Shown here: positions 27,530-63,930 of the stretch, in pieces
Layout: each line of letters begins with the position of its first letter
How positions within the stretch are numbered: the first letter of the stretch is position 1
DNA from: a virus
DNA length: 64,000 bases
Strand: one strand, 5' to 3'
IMG/VR virus record: IMGVR_UViG_3300037149_000100
Position numbers and translations under genes: made by a program
The notes under the pieces: generated by a model
The model's database searches: none
Seen by the model: the letters and a program-made list of their open reading frames with translations, nothing else
Told to the model about the DNA's origin: nothing

Positions 27530-27685
27530 GGCTTTATGGAGCCAACCCGAAAATCCTTGACAATTTCATAAAGCAAATTTAGTAACCCACCCTCCGCTTT
27601 AGGGCGAGGGGTGAAGGGTTCGGGGAGGGCTCCAGAAACTCCTCACTTGAAAAAATGGGCTACACACCTCTTAATTGAGGTGTGT

Positions 27686-28315
27686 ATGTTCAAGTCATGT
27701 ATTCATTGTTCGAAAGAGTTCCAGGCCAAGGACAACAGAAAGAAGTTCTGCTCTCAGTCCTGTTCAGCTTCTCACGCGCAATTAGGGAAGCCGAGCCACA
27801 ACCAAAAGAAGCCACGAAACCTGTGCTACTGTGGTAGCCCAATCGAAAACCCAGTCAGCGTGTTCTGTAGTGACCAGTGCCGCCAATCCCAAAAGATGGG
27901 AGGTATCACCGAATGGGTACAGGGCGGTCCAGCCCCGCTAGGGCCAGAATCAATCACCCGCTGGGTTAAGAAGTTGCGAGGAAGTGCCTGTGAAGAATGC
28001 GGGTGGGACCAACAAAACCCGGTATCAGGTAGGAGCCAGACCCAGGTGGACCACATAGATGGGGACAGCACCAACCTGATGTACACCAACCTCAAAGTGC
28101 TCTGCCCCAACTGTCACTCCATGACCCCCACATTCGGGAGCTTAAACCGAGGAAAAGGGACAAGGACTAAACGGTTCTCCAACCTCGTGCTACTTCCACG
28201 CATCTGCCCCACTTGTGGTGACTCGTTCACTCCAATCAGCAAAAGGCACACAAGCTGTTCTCGTAAGTGCCGGGGTAAGGCAACGTATCAAAAACAAATA
28301 TCTCGGAGTAGTTAA
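27686..28315 (+). CDS. HNH endonuclease with Zn-ribbon repeats
   Basis: CEECG...QVDHIDGDSTN...NLKVLCPNCH; multiple CxxC/FCS motifs. Confidence 0.9.
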   Translation: MFKSCIHCSKEFQAKDNRKKFCSQSCSASHAQLGKPSHNQKKPRNLCYCGSPIENPVSVFCSDQCRQSQKMGGITEWVQGGPAPLGPESITRWVKKLRGSACEECGWDQQNPVSGRSQTQVDHIDGDSTNLMYTNLKVLCPNCHSMTPTFGSLNRGKGTRTKRFSNLVLLPRICPTCGDSFTPISKRHTSCSRKCRGKATYQKQISRSS

Positions 28316-28385: not shown

Positions 28386-28448
28386 TAGACACTAACAGCA
28401 ACCCAAAATTTCACCTTTGGCTGTGAAAAGCAAAATGTGTCGTGTCTA
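28386..28448 (+). ncRNA. TAACAGCAA-clamp RNA copy 1 (anticodon-like hairpin only)
   Basis: TAGACAC/GTGTCTA outer stem, TAACAGCAA, hairpin TTTCAC-CTTTGGCT-GTGAAA. Confidence 0.6.
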
Positions 28449-28646: not shown

Positions 28647-28707
28647 TCACTCGTAGCTCAGTTGGTAGAGCTTCAGTTTGTCGGGAGTTCGAGTCTCTCC
28701 GAGTGCG
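28647..28707 (+). ncRNA. tRNA-like RNA lacking the anticodon arm
   Basis: CACTCG/CGAGTG stem; canonical D arm and T arm joined by only 11 nt. Confidence 0.65.
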
Positions 28708-29085: not shown

Positions 29086-29152
29086 AGTCTTGGTTGACAA
29101 AAAAGGTCATGATAAACATCGAACTTCTTCTTCCTCCTTTGTAGGAGAGAGC

Positions 29153-30208
29153 ATGAAAGTTCTGTTTATTCTGAAGCACAGGGACACTTACTGGGGGGAC
29201 TACTCCTCAACTACCACTTTGTCGTCTGGGCTATCTAATTCGGCCCAGTTCGTCTGCGATGCGTTGAATCTTTCAGGTGAGATCACCGCTAAGCTGGTGC
29301 AAGTAGAGGACAACAATCAAATTGACAAGGAAGTCACCCTATTCCGGCCTGATGTCTGCATTATCGAGGCTTACTGGGTTGTTCCGGAGAAGTTTGGGGT
29401 TCTGATTCCCCTTCACCCCCAGGTCAAATGGGTTGTTCACAACCATAGCGAGATTCCTTTCCTGGCCCAAGAGGGCATTGCAATTGATTGGAGCATTCGT
29501 TATCTTCAATACCCGAATGTCTTCGTCAGTGGCAACTCCCCACGGTCCTACCAGGACATGATTAATTTCCTGGTTCCAGTATATGGATTTGATGCCATCA
29601 AACGGGTTCTGTTCCTGCCCAACATCTACCCATCTGTCCATCGTCGTCACTGCATCCCAAAGAAGCGGAACCACACCTTGGATATCAGTTGCTTCGGGGC
29701 CATCCGGCCCTTGAAGAACCACCTTCTCCAGGCTATGACTGCTATCGACTATGCGAACCAACGGCATTACAACTTGCGTTTCCACATTAATGGGAGTAGA
29801 ATTGAGGGGGGCTCAGCCTCAAACTCAATTCTCAAGAATCTGCAACTGTTGTTCCAGCACACACCCAACTGCGAATTAGTTGAACATCCTTGGTATCCAC
29901 ATGACGAGTTTCTGGGTATTATGGAACAGATGGATGTTTCGATGCAAGTCAGCTTCAGCGAGACGTTTAACATCATCTCAGCGGATGCGGCGACTGTCGG
30001 AGTCCCTATCGTCACTTCTTCTGAAGTGCTTTGGGCACCATGGTTCACCAGAGCCACCCCTACCTCCGCTCGTAGCATCCGGAAACGGCTGGACTTCATG
30101 CTGAAGTATGGCCCTCTCCCCGCAGTCGAGTGGTTGGTCCAGAACAGTCTGAATACTTACAGCAAAGAATCGCTGAAACAGTGGCTGTTTGACTTGAAGA
30201 AACTGTAA
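29153..30208 (+). CDS. GT-B-fold glycosyltransferase
   Basis: CFGAIRPLKNH, QVSFSETFNIISADAATVGVPIVTS (GT4-like E-x7-D motif). Confidence 0.8.
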   Translation: MKVLFILKHRDTYWGDYSSTTTLSSGLSNSAQFVCDALNLSGEITAKLVQVEDNNQIDKEVTLFRPDVCIIEAYWVVPEKFGVLIPLHPQVKWVVHNHSEIPFLAQEGIAIDWSIRYLQYPNVFVSGNSPRSYQDMINFLVPVYGFDAIKRVLFLPNIYPSVHRRHCIPKKRNHTLDISCFGAIRPLKNHLLQAMTAIDYANQRHYNLRFHINGSRIEGGSASNSILKNLQLLFQHTPNCELVEHPWYPHDEFLGIMEQMDVSMQVSFSETFNIISADAATVGVPIVTSSEVLWAPWFTRATPTSARSIRKRLDFMLKYGPLPAVEWLVQNSLNTYSKESLKQWLFDLKKL

Positions 30209-30279: not shown

Positions 30280-30367
30280 GGAAGATCGGCAAAGTTGGAG
30301 AGTTGCACTAGTTTGCTAAACTAGAGGCGTTCGCGTCTAGAGGGTTCGATTCCCTTATCTTCCGCCA
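30280..30367 (+). tRNA. tRNA-Ser(GCT)
   Basis: CTAGT-TTGCTAA-ACTAG; long arm; GCCA. Confidence 0.88.
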
Positions 30368-30368
30368 T

Positions 30369-30484
30369 AAGACCCTAACAGCAATTAAAATTCCCTGTTA
30401 AGGAGGTGGTAGCAGGTCCGACTCCTGCCGAACTGACATATCAGTTCGTAGCTCATCGGTCAGAGCACCTAGAAATTGGGTCTT
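30369..30484 (+). ncRNA. circularly permuted tRNA-Asn(GTT)-like RNA in TAACAGCAA clamp (copy 2)
   Basis: Order: AAGACCC, TAACAGCAA, anticodon loop CTGTTAA, T arm, closed acceptor stem CGAACTGA-CATA-TCAGTTCG, D arm, GGGTCTT. Confidence 0.8.
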
Positions 30485-30662
30485 GATTTATCTGGGTTCA
30501 GCAATGTGCTGTGGGGCCACCCCCACGGTTCCGGAGACGTTAGCTGACGAAAGCTGAGGGACGCTTCCCTTGGGCCAACCCCTTCGTGATCAATCGGCTG
30601 GTACTACGTGAGAGTCGTAGCTTGCCACCCCCGATGGTGGGCTGTAGCAGATCACGATTCAC

Positions 30663-30740
30663 GCTCCTATGGCGCAATTGGCGAGACGCCTATGACTCAG
30701 ACTCATAGTTCTGTCGGTTCGACTCCGACTAGGAGCACCA
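30663..30740 (+). tRNA. tRNA-Leu(CAG), short variable region
   Basis: TATGA-CTCAGAC-TCATA; ACCA. Confidence 0.85.
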
Positions 30741-30741
30741 A

Positions 30742-30834
30742 AAGACCCTAACAGCAATTAACCCTTTTGCCTTGTACAGCAAACGAAGCGTGGTTCGACT
30801 CCACGGATGGCGTGGGCCTAGTTAAACGGGTCTT
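30742..30834 (+). ncRNA. TAACAGCAA-clamp RNA copy 3 (anticodon-like arm plus T arm)
   Basis: AAGACCC/GGGTCTT; TTTGC-CTTGTACA-GCAAA; CGTGG-TTCGACT-CCACG. Confidence 0.7.
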
Positions 30835-30852
30835 GACTTTTTGCATCACCAT

Positions 30853-30929
30853 AGTCTCATCGTCTAGTGGCCAAGGACGCTTGCCTCTCACGCAAGAAAT
30901 CACGGGTTCGACTCCCGTTGGGACTACCA
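30853..30929 (+). tRNA. tRNA-Glu(CTC)
   Basis: CTTGC-CTCTCAC-GCAAG; CCA. Confidence 0.9.
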
Positions 30930-31044
30930 AAGACTCTAACAGCAATCCAAAATTCCCTGTTAAGGACGAGGTAGTGGGTCCGACTCCCACTGAGGCAGCA
31001 CATAGCCTCATAGCTCATCGGTAGAGCGCGTATAAACGAGTCTT
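30930..31044 (+). ncRNA. circularly permuted tRNA-Asn(GTT)-like RNA in TAACAGCAA clamp (copy 4)
   Basis: AAGACTC/GAGTCTT; CTGTTAA loop, T arm, closed acceptor TGAGGC-AGCACATA-GCCTCA, D arm. Confidence 0.8.
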
Positions 31045-31050
31045 GACCAT

Positions 31051-31124
31051 GGTCCCATGGTGTAATGGAAACATACCTGCCTGTCACGTAGGAGAAGCGA
31101 GGTCAGTACTCGTTGGGACCGCCA
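31051..31124 (+). tRNA. tRNA-Asp(GTC)
   Basis: CCTGC-CTGTCAC-GTAGG; atypical T loop; GCCA. Confidence 0.8.
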
Positions 31125-34841: not shown

Positions 34842-34951
34842 TTTCAACACTTAAGACACACACAGCATTCAAATGGATAACGCCTTCGGGCCATTTGGTT
34901 CAAACCCAAAAATGCATCTTGATTTTCTGTTCCAAGGTTAGAGGTGCTTGC

Positions 34952-35690: not shown

Positions 35691-35770
35691 GGGGATGTAG
35701 CTCAGTCTGGTTCCAGAGCGTCAGGCCGTTAACCTGAAGCGCATCGGTTCAAATCCGATCATCCTCGCCA
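35691..35770 (+). tRNA. tRNA-Asn(GTT)
   Basis: TCAGG-CCGTTAA-CCTGA; GCCA. Confidence 0.85.
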
Positions 35771-35774
35771 GTAT

Positions 35775-35852
35775 TCCCTCTTAGCTCAGTCTGGTAGATG
35801 CGCGAAGCTGTTAACTTCGATGTCGTCCGTTCAAATCGGACAGGGGGTGCCA
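35775..35852 (+). tRNA. tRNA-Asn(GTT)
   Basis: CGAAG-CTGTTAA-CTTCG; GCCA. Confidence 0.88.
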
Positions 35853-38207: not shown

Positions 38208-38868
38208 GTGGACATCATGGTAGAAATAAGAGCCGCTGAGGGAGGGGAAGATGCTGTCCTCCTCGTGCGGGATCAACTGAAGGCATATCTTCGTCGTGTG
38301 GAGCGGAGGGGACTTTAGTGCAGAATTATTGGAAGTGACGACTGGGTTTGCATCCTTCCTCGTTAGAGGTGAGGGAGCGGAGGAGTTCTTCAACGAAACT
38401 GGGGGTCATCGGTGGCAACATGTGAGTCCCACCGATAAAAACAAACGTGTTCACACCTCCACTGTTACGGTTGCAGCTTTAGCGATGCGAGCTACCTCGA
38501 CCCACATGAACCCCAACGATGTGGAAATACAAACCACCAGAGGCTCTGGCCCAGGTGGGCAGAACCGAAACAAAGTGGAGAGTTGTGTCCTGGCGATTCA
38601 CAAGCCAACCGGACTTTCGGTGCGGATTGATGGTCGGTCTCAATTGAATAATAAGAGGATGGCATTGCAAATCCTAGCCACCAAGCTGGAAGACCAGCAC
38701 ACCGAGCAGGAACAGAAACGGGTCAGCAGGGATCGCAAGGATCAAGTCGGCACCGGCCAGCGTGGCGATAAAATCCGTACCTATAGGGTCAGAGACAACA
38801 TCGTCATTGACCATCGAACTGGTCAGAAATACCAGCTTTCTCGCTGGCTAGACGGAGTGAGAGAGTAA
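38208..38868 (+). CDS. class I peptide chain release factor homolog, split by a +1 frameshift at CTT-TAG (38313-38318)
   Basis: Frame 0 gives VEIRAAEGGEDA...YLRRVERRGL*; +1 frame gives ETGGHRWQHVSPTD...RVHTSTVTVA...GSGPGGQNRNK...GQRGDKIRTY. Confidence 0.9.
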
Positions 38869-48910: not shown

Positions 48911-48984
48911 GCAGCCGTAATTCATCGGTAGAATGGTTTGCTCTAACCAGACTTAGGCGGGTTCGACTCCTGTCGGCTGCACCA
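48911..48984 (+). tRNA. amber suppressor tRNA (CTA)
   Basis: GCAGCCG/CGGCTGC-ACCA; GTTTG-CTCTAAC-CAGAC; canonical T arm. Confidence 0.88.
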
Positions 48985-60824: not shown

Positions 60825-61022
60825 GGGTTGACTCACAAATAGCGGCAATCATGGAGTTTATGATAGCGATTTCGAGCAGTCTAGTCATTTCTTTGGAAAC
60901 TTCTGGAATGGCCCTCATTCGCACAGCCTAAATAGCTGATACGTATGATTCGAGCGACTCCCAGGCCCCCCTCACCTAACCTCTCGCCAAATTGTCAAAG
61001 ATCCTCACCCTACATAATACTC
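60825..61022 (-). promoter_or_regulatory. CRISPR leader
   Basis: ~195-bp non-coding gap between cas stop and array; phage GAGTATTAT box overlaps the cas stop codon. Confidence 0.65.
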
Positions 61023-63804
61023 AGAACGGCATCTTCTCGATCTCGACCCGTTGCTTGAGCAGATCTCGCCGCAGATTACGCTCCGTCTTGTCAATCCACT
61101 CCACCCCATCCAGATACCATGTGGGTCCGGTTCCGGTCAGATGTGTCCTGGCCGCTTCGAGCGATCCGAATTGATAGAGGAGGCAGCCCTTCATTCGCTT
61201 CGCTCCCTCGTCCGAACCCTTCAGATAGACCTGATGCAGATCCGTATGTCGGGAAAAGAATCGGTGGCCGATGTTCTTCGCTGCGTTGATGTCAGACGGC
61301 ACCGATTCGATTTGGCCATCCGGCGTGAGGAAGAACAAATCCCGACCCTTCCGGTACCCAATCCGACCACTCTCATGATGCACCTGAGAGGTCTGAGCCT
61401 CAGAGACGGTTACGACTCCGATCCCATACCACTGAGCCGCATTAATGATCGCATCCTTAACTCGTTTTGGAGACCAGAAAGCAGTGAGGAAGTTCTCATC
61501 CCGCTGATTCAGAGTCTTGCCATACCCCTCAAGGTCTTCTAGCACGATCAGGCAGCAATCATTCTGATGAGCGATACGGACGATCTTCGAAGCAAGTTGC
61601 TTGAGGAAGTTATCCTTGCAGCCATTGTAATCCAGCTTCTGCTGTTCCAAACAGATGGGAATGCGAGAGTTATCCGTACCCAGATAGCTGAGGGATCGGG
61701 TGACCCGTTTCCGCTGTTCAAGGATGTTGAGCCACTTGAAATCCTGATCGAACTTCTGATCAGCCATTTGGTTCTGGGACAGATACGACCGCCTCCGATT
61801 CCGCAACGCTCCGAACTGGAGTGTCACATACTTGAACAGAATATTGATGAGGAAGCTGAAATCCTTCTTGACAGACTCCAAGTTGTTTTCGTATCGCTTC
61901 ATCATCTGATCCATCTGATACAAAGGATCCGGATCCTTGCTGAACTGTTCGAAGATCTGACTCCTTCGCTGACCCGCCACCTTGTAGTCAGCGAAGAACC
62001 GCTGAACCGTATGAATCATATCAACCAGATGAGAGTCAGCCTTCAGACCTTTGCCCTTCGAACTGGATTTGACCTGACCGATCAGATGACCCAGGTTCTT
62101 ATATGCGTAGAACAATTCCGTGTAATCCGGGTCATCAGCAATCTCCATCTCTCCACTGTTCAGAATTTGAGACGGATTCGCCACACCTGTGATGGTTGAT
62201 TCGGTGACGGCCCAGGCGAAAGGACTGCGGATACCCAGGTCCACTGACATCACCTTATAGGTCTTACCCTGAATCAGATTGAACCGTTCAACCGTCTTCT
62301 CCGTATCCTTCGACAGATCTGAACCCGTAGCCGCTGCGGAAAGGTAATACTGCAAGGCAATGTGTTCCTCAGAGGCTCTCATCCCCTCTACGGACATACT
62401 GAGCCGCAGGAAGAACGCTCCGTTCCGATAAACCAGAACCGGTTCCTTGCAAATAGCCGAACGCTCCGTTCCCTTGCGAACAAAGTTCAGGTAGGTGGAT
62501 TCACCTTCTGGATTAGACCAGATTTGGAGATCCTGAAGATAAGAAGTGGGCTTCAGAGTTGAACGATGCCCTCGGAGTCCCTTGGTGTTCATCGCTATGG
62601 TATAAACTTCAAAGTTGAAGTTCTCTTTCCGGTCCCCAACCTTGACATACAGCCGCTCCACCTTTCGACCGTTCCGCATCAACACATCCTTGTCGTTATC
62701 CCAAATCACTCGATCAGGAAGCTCAGAGCCCGTAGCACTGATCAGATGCTTGGTGTAATTCCCACCCAGCAGGTAATAGAACCGATGGTAGTCAGCCTCA
62801 CCGACAAACGCATAAGCGGCAGTCTTCCGATGAGCCCGATGGGACATGATGGCTTCGAGCAGATGGAGATGTTTGAGGATCAGGGGCTTGGGGATCAGAT
62901 CATCCTCAGAGGTCTCCAACGTGTTCCACAGTTCCGGCATTTCAGCTAGCAATTCGTAGAACTTAATATCCAGGCTAAAGTCAATATGCTTCTGCCCCAC
63001 ATCCTTTCGATTCGATTTCAGATAGAAATGCTCGGTCGGAATCGTGCGTTGCTGAAGAGCCGGGATGATACAATCCCTCAGATAGTGATGAACCCGCTCA
63101 TCGAAATGACCGATCAGGTTCAGACCGATACAGGTATCAAAGAACCGCAACAGGCTCTGCCGAATCCGAACCGGAACCTCAGCTTTCATCTGCTGGATTT
63201 GAACCTCTTCCGCCGCATAGGACTCTTCGGTCATCCGCTTCATTTCGATCCAACTCTTCAGATCAGACATCACATCCTTAGTGATGGCTTTCCGTTCTGG
63301 GGCGAACAGCGTAGCGGTGAAAGGAGGGCGGGAGAAGAAGCCGATATGCTTCAACGTATTGGAGACCCGAAACAAGAATTGACTGTTGTGGCTCTTCGGA
63401 TCCGCCACATATTCGGTCAGAACGGCCCAATCCTCGGCGGTCATCTGATCCGTCTGGATTGCCCCTTCGAACAACTTCGTATACATATGATTGCCTTGCT
63501 GACAGTTCAGCAGGCCCAACCACAAAGCCTTCAGGCAATTGCTGAATTGCTCGTAACTGATGGTCCGGTCGGTCCGCTCGTAGAGAGCCTTACGCTGAGC
63601 CGTCAGATCCACCCTTTCACATCCGAGTTCTCGGCTGGTCTGATTCTGGGTCTTCTGCTCCACCCAATCCAGCCCCCAGCAGGGGACTTCATTGTAAAGT
63701 GCATGATATGTCTTGAAGCACCGCTCATACCGATCCCAGAACTGGTCCTTCCGCAGATCGGTCTTCAGTTCGATCACTCTTACTCCACTCAACTCCTTTG
63801 TCAT
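61021..63804 (-). CDS. cas12: type V CRISPR effector (Cas12 family, ~927 aa)
   Basis: RuvC-I VMSVDLGIR, RuvC-II IVLEDL, RuvC-III SDINAAKNIG; adjacent to array; AAAGGAG RBS before ATG at 63804. Confidence 0.93.
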   Translation of the reverse strand: MTKELSGVRVIELKTDLRKDQFWDRYERCFKTYHALYNEVPCWGLDWVEQKTQNQTSRELGCERVDLTAQRKALYERTDRTISYEQFSNCLKALWLGLLNCQQGNHMYTKLFEGAIQTDQMTAEDWAVLTEYVADPKSHNSQFLFRVSNTLKHIGFFSRPPFTATLFAPERKAITKDVMSDLKSWIEMKRMTEESYAAEEVQIQQMKAEVPVRIRQSLLRFFDTCIGLNLIGHFDERVHHYLRDCIIPALQQRTIPTEHFYLKSNRKDVGQKHIDFSLDIKFYELLAEMPELWNTLETSEDDLIPKPLILKHLHLLEAIMSHRAHRKTAAYAFVGEADYHRFYYLLGGNYTKHLISATGSELPDRVIWDNDKDVLMRNGRKVERLYVKVGDRKENFNFEVYTIAMNTKGLRGHRSTLKPTSYLQDLQIWSNPEGESTYLNFVRKGTERSAICKEPVLVYRNGAFFLRLSMSVEGMRASEEHIALQYYLSAAATGSDLSKDTEKTVERFNLIQGKTYKVMSVDLGIRSPFAWAVTESTITGVANPSQILNSGEMEIADDPDYTELFYAYKNLGHLIGQVKSSSKGKGLKADSHLVDMIHTVQRFFADYKVAGQRRSQIFEQFSKDPDPLYQMDQMMKRYENNLESVKKDFSFLINILFKYVTLQFGALRNRRRSYLSQNQMADQKFDQDFKWLNILEQRKRVTRSLSYLGTDNSRIPICLEQQKLDYNGCKDNFLKQLASKIVRIAHQNDCCLIVLEDLEGYGKTLNQRDENFLTAFWSPKRVKDAIINAAQWYGIGVVTVSEAQTSQVHHESGRIGYRKGRDLFFLTPDGQIESVPSDINAAKNIGHRFFSRHTDLHQVYLKGSDEGAKRMKGCLLYQFGSLEAARTHLTGTGPTWYLDGVEWIDKTERNLRRDLLKQRVEIEKMPF

Positions 63805-63930
63805 GTCTGGCTCTCCTTTGAGCGTGTGCTGCGATGAGCATCTATAGGGATGATACCGCATCTTGCAAGAGTTTGGATACAAAAATTTCTGAGACATTTC
63901 AAGAAAGTAAAAGTCTAACAATAGTTTATT

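What the first reader, a model, noticed from the sequence alone, without database searches (positions are those of the whole stretch)
30369..31044. Circularly permuted tRNA-Asn-like genes
Seen: at 30369-30484 and 30930-31044 the order is anticodon loop (CTGTTAA), T arm, acceptor 3' strand, short loop, acceptor 5' strand, D arm, start of the anticodon stem. Rejoining gives full anticodon stems with compensatory change (CCTCC/GGAGG vs CGTCC/GGACG). The acceptor stems differ completely yet pair, and both T loops read TCCGACT. Known: permuted tRNA genes occur in Cyanidioschyzon merolae and Thermofilum pendens, and bacterial YrlA Y RNAs carry a permuted tRNA-like domain with a closed acceptor stem but no anticodon loop. 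Inference: these are either precursors matured by cleavage and ligation (the phage has Rnl1) or unchargeable tRNA mimics/decoys. Two ordinary Asn tRNAs are also present, which favours a decoy role.
Basis: partly seen in the sequence, partly recalled or inferred. Interest (0 to 1): 0.9.

Follow-up and report, generated by a model that had tools for sequence, protein, structure and literature searches.

The report
Phage tRNA-Asn mimics on Y-RNA-like handle
Two small RNA genes in this jumbo phage's tRNA cluster encode back-to-front copies of an asparagine tRNA mounted on a conserved "handle"; that handle marks a large, apparently undescribed phage RNA family found beside Ro60-like proteins, so they are most likely tRNA look-alikes in a Y-RNA-type particle rather than tRNA precursors.

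Summary
At 30369-30484 and 30930-31044 the order is anticodon loop, T arm, hairpin-closed acceptor stem, D arm, then the first 3 nt of the anticodon stem. Rejoined, both are called tRNA-Asn(GUU) by ARAGORN. The two copies differ by 8 compensatory pair changes.

They are not free-standing permuted tRNA genes. Each is the cargo of a conserved handle: a 7-bp terminal stem N-AGAC-N-C / G-N-GUCU-N followed by invariant UAACAGCAA. The window has four such elements with different cargo.

The handle recurs in many viral contigs with covarying stem positions:
- 35 of 45 handle-bearing records encode a DUF2828 protein, against 1 of 45 control records.
- The DUF2828 gene often lies immediately downstream of a handle element.
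- A DUF2828 model matches Ro60 structures best.
- A covariance model built from the two copies finds 21 more tRNA-mimic members, with other anticodon-like loops such as Asp, Lys, Phe and Ile.

Rfam gives only sub-threshold YrlA hits (32 bits; threshold 69), and the YrlA Ro-binding motif is absent.

Best reading: Y-RNA-like tRNA mimics, not ligation precursors. No DUF2828 gene lies in this 64-kb window, and the rest of the genome could not be searched. The scan has met this family before on other DNA. I found no published description of it.

The parts
30369..30485 (+). E1: handle RNA carrying a permuted tRNA-Asn(GUU) mimic. 5' stem 30369-30375, UAACAGCAA 30376-30384, anticodon hairpin 30393-30403, T arm 30412-30428, closed acceptor 30429-30448, D arm 30451-30466, CCU 30468-30470, 3' stem 30478-30484, then G
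   Evidence: YrlA 32.0 bits at 30404-30471; R1 146.9 bits
30930..31045 (+). E3: paralogue of E1 (about 78% identical when rejoined). 5' stem 30930-30936, UAACAGCAA 30937-30945, anticodon hairpin 30955-30965, T arm 30974-30990, closed acceptor 30991-31010 (6 bp plus an A.A), D arm 31013-31027, CGU 31029-31031, 3' stem 31038-31044. Starts directly after the CCA of tRNA-Glu and ends 6 nt before tRNA-Asp
   Evidence: (YrlA 31.8 bits)
30742..30835 (+). E2: same handle (AAGACCC/GGGUCUU plus UAACAGCAA). Cargo is an anticodon-like hairpin with an 8-nt loop, a T arm (CGUGG-UUCGACU-CCACG) and a mini hairpin; no D arm or acceptor
   Evidence: R1 27.9 bits
28386..28449 (+). E4: same handle with covarying stem (UAGACAC/GUGUCUA) and UAACAGCAA. 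Cargo is one hairpin only. Ends 1 nt before tRNA-Arg
34853..34921 (+). Possible degenerate fifth copy after tRNA-Ala: AAGACAC-ACACAGCAUU ... AAAUGCAUCUUG, only 5 of 7 stem pairs
   Evidence: read by eye; not found by R1 at E<=0.01
30280..31124 (+). tRNA genes that punctuate the elements: Ser 30280-30367, Leu 30663-30740, Glu 30853-30929, Asp 31051-31124, all with encoded CCA
35691..35852 (+). Two ordinary tRNA-Asn(GUU) genes. They are not the recent source of E1/E3: no similarity beyond generic tRNA features

Best explanation
E1 and E3 are paralogous genes for roughly 116-nt non-coding RNAs of a Y-RNA-like kind. Each has two modules.

Module 1 is a handle: a 7-bp terminal stem (N-AGAC-N-C paired with G-N-GUCU-N) followed on the 5' strand by single-stranded UAACAGCAA.

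Module 2 is a complete tRNA-Asn look-alike whose acceptor end is sealed by a loop. Its chain enters and leaves at a nick between positions 29 and 30 of the anticodon stem. The RNA therefore shows an intact anticodon arm, elbow and acceptor helix but has no free CCA end.

Shown: the structure and its covariation; membership of a large phage RNA family defined by the handle; the genomic association of that family with DUF2828 proteins, which have a Ro60-like fold.

Inferred:
- The RNAs are co-transcribed with the tRNA array and released by RNase P and 3' trimming of the neighbouring tRNAs.
- The handle docks a Ro60-like DUF2828 protein encoded elsewhere in this jumbo phage.
- The tRNA-shaped cargo acts as an adaptor or decoy that engages a tRNA-Asn-recognising host factor, for example an anticodon-directed nuclease or another tRNA-binding enzyme. 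This would parallel Y RNAs tethering Ro60 to PNPase.

They are not precursors of a translating tRNA.
For: Structure: ARAGORN calls the rejoined forms tRNA-Asn. E1 against E3 shows 8 compensatory pairs and 98% pairing. Model R1 built from them finds 21 further full-length members in viral loci at 33-74 bits. On those 23 sequences 96.5% of cells pair and 25 of 28 pairs show compensatory change, against 32-50% pairing when partners are slid. That alignment is fitted to the model.

Handle family: four copies in the window. In the viral-contig scan, where a GNGUCU follows the 5' motif, the two variable stem positions are Watson-Crick in 60/65 and 58/65 cases, against 6/25 in an upstream control (p about 1e-30 and 1e-27).

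Partner protein:
- DUF2828 (PF11443) is present in 35 of 45 handle-bearing records, and in 8 of 9 that are at least 90% complete.
- It is present in 1 of 45 records that hold the 14-mer without a closing stem (Fisher p 1.7e-14).
- It is present in 1.4% of named phage records.
- Handles sit on the gene's strand within 1.5 kb of the DUF2828 gene in 19 of 30 loci, mostly just upstream of it.
- An AlphaFold model of a DUF2828 protein (pLDDT 78.8) has Ro60 structures as its top 12 PDB matches over the full length: phiLo Ro60 9kop at E 2.5e-8, then 1yvr and 2nvo.

YrlA likeness: Rfam RF02553 core hits.

Processing context: 47 of 133 family elements lie within 15 nt of a same-strand tRNA gene. D. radiodurans Yrn2 is likewise made on one precursor with tRNA-Asp (PMC4201824).

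Cultured-phage link: a Felixounavirus has an R1 hit (29.7 bits) in an unannotated gap 1 kb downstream of its DUF2828 gene. The Ro60-like gp130 of Felix O1-type phage Bas63, just upstream of its tRNA genes, counters the ppl defence (PMC11482910).
Against: No DUF2828 or TROVE gene lies in this 64-kb window. This was checked by Pfam on all ORFs of 400 aa or more, tblastn with 30 DUF2828 proteins and a six-frame profile search. The nearest held relative, G001, also lacks one, but it is only 33% complete. The window's own genome is not held, so the partner is unverified here. In complete records handles do lie 14-85 kb from the gene.

Binding of the handle to DUF2828 has never been tested; the link is genomic only. 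There are no expression data. The host factor engaged by the tRNA mimic is unknown. CUGUUA can pair with UAACAG of the handle, so the anticodon loop may not be displayed in the free RNA.
Confidence: 0.6

Rival explanations
1. Permuted pre-tRNAs. The flanks are cut away, positions 29 and 30 are ligated (for example by the phage Rnl1) to give a circle, and RNase P plus 3' processing open the acceptor loop to give a working tRNA-Asn, as in Cyanidioschyzon merolae.
For: The rejoined sequences score as tRNA-Asn. The anticodon stem is completed with a compensatory change. The phage encodes an Rnl1-type ligase.
Against: The same flanks enclose cargo that cannot give a tRNA: E2, E4 and most viral relatives with 20-50-nt cargo. 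The flanks form a 7-bp stem with a 9-nt bulge, not a bulge-helix-bulge, and no splicing endonuclease is known in phages. The acceptor loops read CAUA and AGCACAUA with no CCA, whereas every ordinary tRNA here encodes CCA. Both T loops have C55. Two normal tRNA-Asn genes exist. The family tracks a Ro60-like gene, not a ligase.
Confidence: 0.06
2. A two-piece, CCA-tailed tRNA mimic. RNase P cuts the sealed acceptor of E1 (7-8 bp) and CCA is added, as shown for M. smegmatis YrlA. This gives a nicked RNA held together by the handle that could even be charged by AsnRS. It is a refinement of the best explanation rather than an alternative to it.
For: M. smegmatis YrlA, the one YrlA with a 7-bp acceptor stem, is cut by RNase P and gains CCA in vivo (PMC4201824). 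E1 has a 7-8-bp acceptor and most relatives have 7 bp. Several relatives have CCA as the acceptor loop.
Against: E3 has only 6 pairs plus an A.A at 1-72. There are no expression data. S. Typhimurium YrlA and Yrn1 are not cut (PMC4201824).
Confidence: 0.15
3. A protein-independent decoy. The RNAs act alone as bait for a host anticodon nuclease or other tRNA-Asn-directed defence. The handle only stabilises the ends, and this phage has no Ro60-like partner.
For: No DUF2828 gene in the window or in G001. Relatives carry various anticodon-like loops. The phage carries about 29 tRNAs and Rnl1, which is typical of phages facing tRNA-targeting defences (general knowledge).
Against: UAACAGCAA is invariant across unrelated phages with all kinds of cargo, which argues for a specific binding partner. 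8 of 9 near-complete handle-bearing genomes do encode DUF2828.
Confidence: 0.12
4. Decayed or rearranged tRNA pseudogenes, or DNA-level repeats with no RNA function.
For: They lie in a dense tRNA array where duplications are common. There is a degenerate copy at 34853.
Against: Compensatory changes occur in every helix between the paralogues and across 23 relatives. Orientation is strand-specific. The motif is invariant across unrelated phages.
Confidence: 0.03

Closest known systems
YrlA, the tRNA-like bacterial and mycobacteriophage Y RNA bound by Rsr/Ro60 (Rfam RF02553; Chen et al. 2014, PMC4201824; structure in 10.1101/312249)
   Same: The same permuted order (T arm, hairpin-closed acceptor stem, D arm), closed by pairing of the RNA's two ends. 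Tertiary-contact nucleotides are kept. It is encoded with tRNAs or near a Ro60-type gene at family level. Both elements hit the RF02553 core.
   Different: The score is 32 bits against a threshold of 69. The terminal module is N-AGAC-N-C plus UAACAGCAA, not GNCGAAN0-1G. In YrlA the anticodon stem runs on into the Ro-binding helix and there is no anticodon loop. Here the stem is capped by a canonical 7-nt Asn loop, and the handle is attached through single-stranded linkers at a nick between 29 and 30. The family's protein neighbour is DUF2828, not a Pfam TROVE protein.
Class I RNAs of dictyostelid social amoebae (Kjellin et al. 2021, PMC7919456)
   Same: [quoted passage not shown] An example from the paper's supplement is GUUGAC-CUUACAGCAA...GUCAAC-UG. 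The phage handle reads C-U-(A/U)-ACAGCAA at the same positions counted from the 5' end (7-16). Some phage copies have exactly CUUACAGCAA.
   Different: Class I RNAs are eukaryotic, 42-65 nt, have their own DUSE promoter and no tRNA-like cargo. Their known direct binder is an RRM protein. Whether the likeness is homology or convergence was not tested.
Circularly permuted tRNA genes of Cyanidioschyzon merolae and some archaea
   Same: The 3' half lies before the 5' half, joined through the acceptor ends. The rejoined sequence is a full cloverleaf.
   Different: Those are matured through a bulge-helix-bulge cut by the splicing endonuclease into working tRNAs. Here there is no such motif, and the flanks are a conserved protein-type handle shared with non-tRNA cargo.
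Phage Ro60 systems: Thermus phage phiLo Ro60 with Yrl1/Yrl2 (PMC12135203) and Bas63 gp130 (PMC11482910)
   Same: A phage-encoded Ro60-fold protein with small RNAs encoded beside it. phiLo Ro60 is the best structural match of the DUF2828 model. gp130 lies just upstream of the tRNA array, and its authors suggested that some 'tRNA genes' there might be Y RNAs.
   Different: The phiLo RNAs carry the CGAA motif and no tRNA mimic. For Bas63 the RNAs were not identified. Neither paper describes the ACAGCAA handle.

Membership tests
YrlA (Rfam RF02553) | tRNA-like domain: T arm, hairpin-closed acceptor-like stem, D arm, in that order, closed by a stem | tested here: met
YrlA (Rfam RF02553) | Score at or above the Rfam gathering threshold (69 bits) | tested here: not met
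   32.0 and 31.8 bits, model positions 23-86 only; no hit at the gathering threshold
YrlA (Rfam RF02553) | Rsr-binding motif GNCGAAN0-1G near the 5' end (PMC4201824) | tested here: not met
   The 5' region reads AAGACNCUAACAGCAAU. The only GCCGAA, in E1, lies inside the acceptor stem and is not followed by G within one nucleotide
YrlA (Rfam RF02553) | Encoded within about 4 kb of a TROVE/Ro60 gene on the same strand | tested here: not met
   No TROVE or DUF2828 hit in any ORF of 400 aa or more in the window, nor by tblastn or profile search
ACAGCAA-handle RNAs beside DUF2828 genes (phage family, no published description found) | 7-bp terminal stem N-AGAC-N-C / G-N-GUCU-N with covarying N positions, then G | tested here: met
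   E1 AAGACCC/GGGUCUU, E3 AAGACUC/GAGUCUU; family covariation
ACAGCAA-handle RNAs beside DUF2828 genes (phage family, no published description found) | Invariant U(A/U)ACAGCAA directly 3' of the 5' stem strand | tested here: met
ACAGCAA-handle RNAs beside DUF2828 genes (phage family, no published description found) | A DUF2828 (Ro60-fold) gene in the same genome | not testable with these tools
   The window's assembly is not held. None in the window. Family level: 35/45 against 1/45
Circularly permuted tRNA genes (C. merolae type) | 3' half upstream of 5' half; the rejoined sequence is a tRNA | tested here: met
Circularly permuted tRNA genes (C. merolae type) | Bulge-helix-bulge at the paired termini for the splicing endonuclease | tested here: not met
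   The termini form a 7-bp stem with a 9-nt one-sided bulge and A/U-rich linkers
Circularly permuted tRNA genes (C. merolae type) | Maturation to a linear, chargeable tRNA | not testable with these tools
   No expression data. No CCA in the acceptor loops and C55 in the T loops argue against it
Dictyostelid Class I RNAs | Short terminal stem plus the 11-nt motif CCUUACAGCAA next to its 5' strand | tested here: met
   Same register; positions 7-16 identical except position 9 (A here, U there)
Dictyostelid Class I RNAs | 42-65 nt, dictyostelid gene with DUSE promoter | tested here: not met
   116 nt, in a phage tRNA array

The most novel reading that the evidence does not exclude
The ACAGCAA handle is a universal docking module for Ro60-like DUF2828 rings. 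Phages use it to display interchangeable tRNA look-alikes with chosen anticodon arms (Asn here; Asp, Lys, Phe, Ile, Tyr elsewhere). This would be a programmable decoy or adaptor system aimed at anticodon-specific host factors such as tRNA-cleaving defence nucleases. It may be evolutionarily related to the unexplained Class I RNAs of social amoebae.
Probability: 0.2. Interest if true: 0.9.

Novelty: new variant of a known kind. Interest (0 to 1): 0.72.

Why it matters
Ro60-Y RNA particles are known from animals, about 5% of bacteria and a few phages. Their RNA partners have been hard to find, and the role of the tRNA-like module is unknown.

This window shows a second, much larger class of candidate partners. 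It is defined by a different handle and tied to DUF2828 proteins, which occur in about 1.4% of sequenced phages, including Felix O1-type, Listeria, Staphylococcus and mycobacteriophages.

Some members carry a complete anticodon arm of a specific tRNA. That makes the question of what the tRNA mimic binds directly testable, by swapping anticodon loops, pull-downs, and defence-system assays such as ppl against Bas63 gp130. It also offers a concrete lead on the function of Dictyostelium Class I RNAs.

Tried and rejected
- Rfam at the gathering threshold and at E<=10 on E1-E3, on E4 and on a short-cargo locus gave nothing for the handle, only sub-threshold YrlA core hits.
- Megablast of 29-33 kb of the window against named phages gave no match.
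- TROVE (PF05731) in the nearest record G001 gave none.
- The search for the partner gene in the window was negative: Pfam on 20 ORFs, tblastn and hmmsearch --max.
- Attempts to reach the rest of the genome failed. The look-up of encoding contigs had no record of the edge gene. Relatives found with the 944-aa ORF are not held for whole-record search.
- A DUF2828 sequence profile against PDB sequences gave no hit; only the fold comparison shows the Ro60 likeness.
- An exact-pattern search for close homologues of the Asn mimic in viral contigs found none.
- I considered the handle as a self-cleaving ribozyme or a bulge-helix-bulge splice signal and rejected it. There is no Rfam ribozyme hit, the same handle is an intact stable end in Class I RNAs, and the geometry is wrong.
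- I considered that the UAACAG/CUGUUA pairing explains the 'anticodon loop', and rejected it as the general explanation, because relatives have other anticodon-like loops that cannot pair with the handle. It may still matter for E1/E3.
- The 176-nt gap at 30487-30662 showed no significant fold (z -0.96).
- The sigma-70 promoter scan of the array found nothing; the scan is uninformative for this host.
- Literature searches for the motif or for DUF2828 RNA partners found no description.

Full report
**1. What is there**

The window is part of a large phage genome. It carries about 29 tRNA genes on the + strand between 28.3 and 49 kb, all with encoded CCA.

- a 7-nt loop CUGUUAA closed by CC/GG;
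- 3 nt of the anticodon-stem 3' strand;
- a 5-nt variable region;
- a T arm with loop UCCGACU;
- a 6-8-bp acceptor stem closed by a short loop;
- U8-A9, then a D arm;
- position 26 and the first 3 nt of the anticodon-stem 5' strand.

ARAGORN finds nothing in the native order. When the two pieces are rejoined at 29/30 and the acceptor loop is opened, it calls both tRNA-Asn(GUU).

The two copies are about 78% identical when rejoined, and neither is a close copy of the phage's two ordinary tRNA-Asn genes. On a 28-pair structure, 98.2% of cells pair and 8 pairs differ on both sides. Slid controls give 24-41% pairing and no compensatory change.

**2.

Both elements are enclosed by a conserved module. 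The 5' end is N-AGAC-N-C followed by UAACAGCAA. The 3' end is G-N'-GUCU-N' followed by G. Together they form a 7-bp terminal stem: AAGACCC/GGGUCUU in E1 and AAGACUC/GAGUCUU in E3.

The window holds four clean copies and perhaps a decayed fifth at 34853:
- E4 (28386-28448; UAGACAC/GUGUCUA) carries only a hairpin.
- E2 (30742-30834) carries an anticodon-like hairpin plus a T arm.
- E1 and E3 carry a whole permuted tRNA.

E3 begins directly after the CCA of tRNA-Glu and ends 6 nt before tRNA-Asp. E4 ends 1 nt before tRNA-Arg. Ordinary tRNA processing would therefore release these RNAs; this step is inferred.

**3. The handle defines a large phage RNA family**

About half are chance matches of a 14-mer. 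In the others a matching closing strand follows within 260 nt.

Without constraining the closing strand, the two variable stem positions are Watson-Crick in 60/65 and 58/65 cases, using all four pair types. An upstream control gives 6/25 (p about 1e-30 and 1e-27).

The cargo ranges from 20-nt hairpins to tRNA-like modules. 47 of 133 elements lie within 15 nt of a same-strand tRNA gene. No Rfam family covers the handle.

**4. The tRNA-mimic subclass**

A covariance model built from E1 and E3 alone (R1) finds 21 further full-length matches at 33-74 bits in viral loci. One is in the nearest relative of this phage, G001.

On the 23-sequence alignment 96.5% of cells pair, and 25 of 28 pairs show compensatory change. 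The covariation score is 0.74, against at most 0.13 when partners are slid. The caveat is that this alignment is fitted to the model. All six helices are supported, including the two that make up the nicked anticodon stem.

Many relatives have canonical 7-nt anticodon-like loops with other triplets:
- CUGUCAA, twice (Asp)
- CUUUUAA (Lys)
- UUGAAAC (Phe)
- AUGAUAA (Ile)
- UUUGGGA
- AUUGUAA
- a Tyr-type loop

A displayed anticodon arm is therefore a trait of this subclass, not an accident of E1/E3. In E1/E3, CUGUUA is also complementary to UAACAG of the handle, and the MFE fold pairs them. Relatives cannot form this pairing, so I treat it as incidental or as a local regulatory feature.

**5. The likely partner**

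- PF11443 is found in 35 of 45 handle-bearing viral records, and in 8 of 9 that are at least 90% complete.
- It is found in 1 of 45 records that hold the 14-mer without a closing stem (Fisher p 1.7e-14).
- It is found in 709 of 50,697 named phage records, or 1.4%.
- In 19 of 30 loci centred on the gene, one to three handle elements lie on the same strand within 1.5 kb of it, mostly just upstream.

A profile of 23 DUF2828 proteins finds nothing in PDB by sequence. An AlphaFold model (pLDDT 78.8) has Ro60 proteins as its 12 best PDB matches over the full length: Thermus phage phiLo Ro60 at E 2.5e-8, then Xenopus, Deinococcus and human Ro60.

In a cultured Felixounavirus, R1 finds a member in an unannotated gap of the tRNA array 1 kb downstream of the DUF2828 gene.

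In the literature, the Ro60-like gp130 of Felix O1-type phage Bas63 lies just upstream of its tRNA genes and counters the ppl defence. Its authors guessed that some of those tRNA genes might be Y RNAs (PMC11482910).

**6. The gap in this window**

No DUF2828 or TROVE gene lies in these 64 kb. The window's genome is not held. The nearest record has a handle RNA but no DUF2828 in the third of the genome that it covers.

In complete records handles can lie 14-85 kb from the gene, so this absence is weak evidence. The partner nevertheless remains unverified for this phage.

**7. Mechanism**

Shown: the fold, family membership, and the genomic link to a Ro60-fold protein.

Inferred, by analogy with Ro60-Y RNA particles (PMC4201824, PMC12135203): the handle docks the ring protein, and the tRNA-shaped cargo recruits or baits a tRNA-recognising factor.

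The Asn anticodon arm, the sealed acceptor, the C55 T loop and the lack of CCA fit a mimic and not a translating tRNA.

A refinement remains open. M. smegmatis YrlA, which has a 7-bp acceptor, is cut by RNase P and gains CCA in vivo. E1 has 7-8 bp and might be opened in the same way.

**8. Comparison with known families**

YrlA is closest in how it works, but membership fails on three tested features: score, Ro-binding motif and gene neighbourhood.

The handle matches the hallmark of dictyostelid Class I RNAs. The supplement of PMC7919456 gives GUUGAC-CUUACAGCAA...GUCAAC-UG and the motif CCUUACAGCAA. Positions 7-16 are the same as in the phage handle except for one base. Whether this is homology was not tested.

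Permuted tRNA genes of the C. merolae type share only the gene order.

**9. Verdict**

The elements are new members of a phage RNA family for which I found no publication. It is a variant of the Y RNA/YrlA theme with a different handle and a complete anticodon arm.

Earlier agents of this scan reported the same family on other genomes. The DUF2828, Class I RNA and Bas63 leads came from their notes and were re-tested here.

Noticed in passing
window 61021-63921 (-): A 966-aa ORF with C2c1/Cas12 RuvC-like and Cas12f TNB domain hits: a phage-encoded type V Cas12-like nuclease. Other notes of this scan report a CRISPR array beside it.
   Followed up: no
window 38296-38868 (+) and 48911-48984 (+): A short release-factor-like ORF (RF-1 and PCRF domains, 190 aa) inside the tRNA array, and a tRNA with anticodon CUA (amber suppressor, called tRNA-Pyl by ARAGORN).
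   Followed up: no
window 30487-30662 (+): A 176-nt G+C-rich non-coding gap between E1 and tRNA-Leu with no ORF, no Rfam hit and no significant fold (z -0.96). Unexplained.
   Followed up: partly
window 28647-28707 (+): An Rfam tRNA hit (36.5 bits) that ARAGORN does not call; possibly a truncated or unusual tRNA.
   Followed up: no
window 30412-30428 and 30974-30990: Both mimics have the T loop UCCGACU, with C at position 55 where tRNAs have U (pseudouridine). The ordinary tRNAs of the array and E2 have UUCGA. TruB could not modify them.
   Followed up: no
L021:1316-1430 (+): A handle element whose cargo is a tRNA-Asn(GUU)-like cloverleaf in native, unpermuted order, with the handle attached at the acceptor ends. 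This is a second, unrelated Asn-type cargo in the family.
   Followed up: partly
window 27611-28315 (+) and 29090-30208 (+): An HNH endonuclease ORF at the start of the tRNA array, and a 372-aa ORF with weak glycosyltransferase hits inside it.
   Followed up: no
phages collection: DUF2828 homologues in Mycobacterium phages are annotated 'Ro-like RNA binding protein'. Many Felixounavirus, Listeria and Staphylococcus homologues are annotated 'hypothetical' or 'RNA-binding protein'.
   Followed up: no
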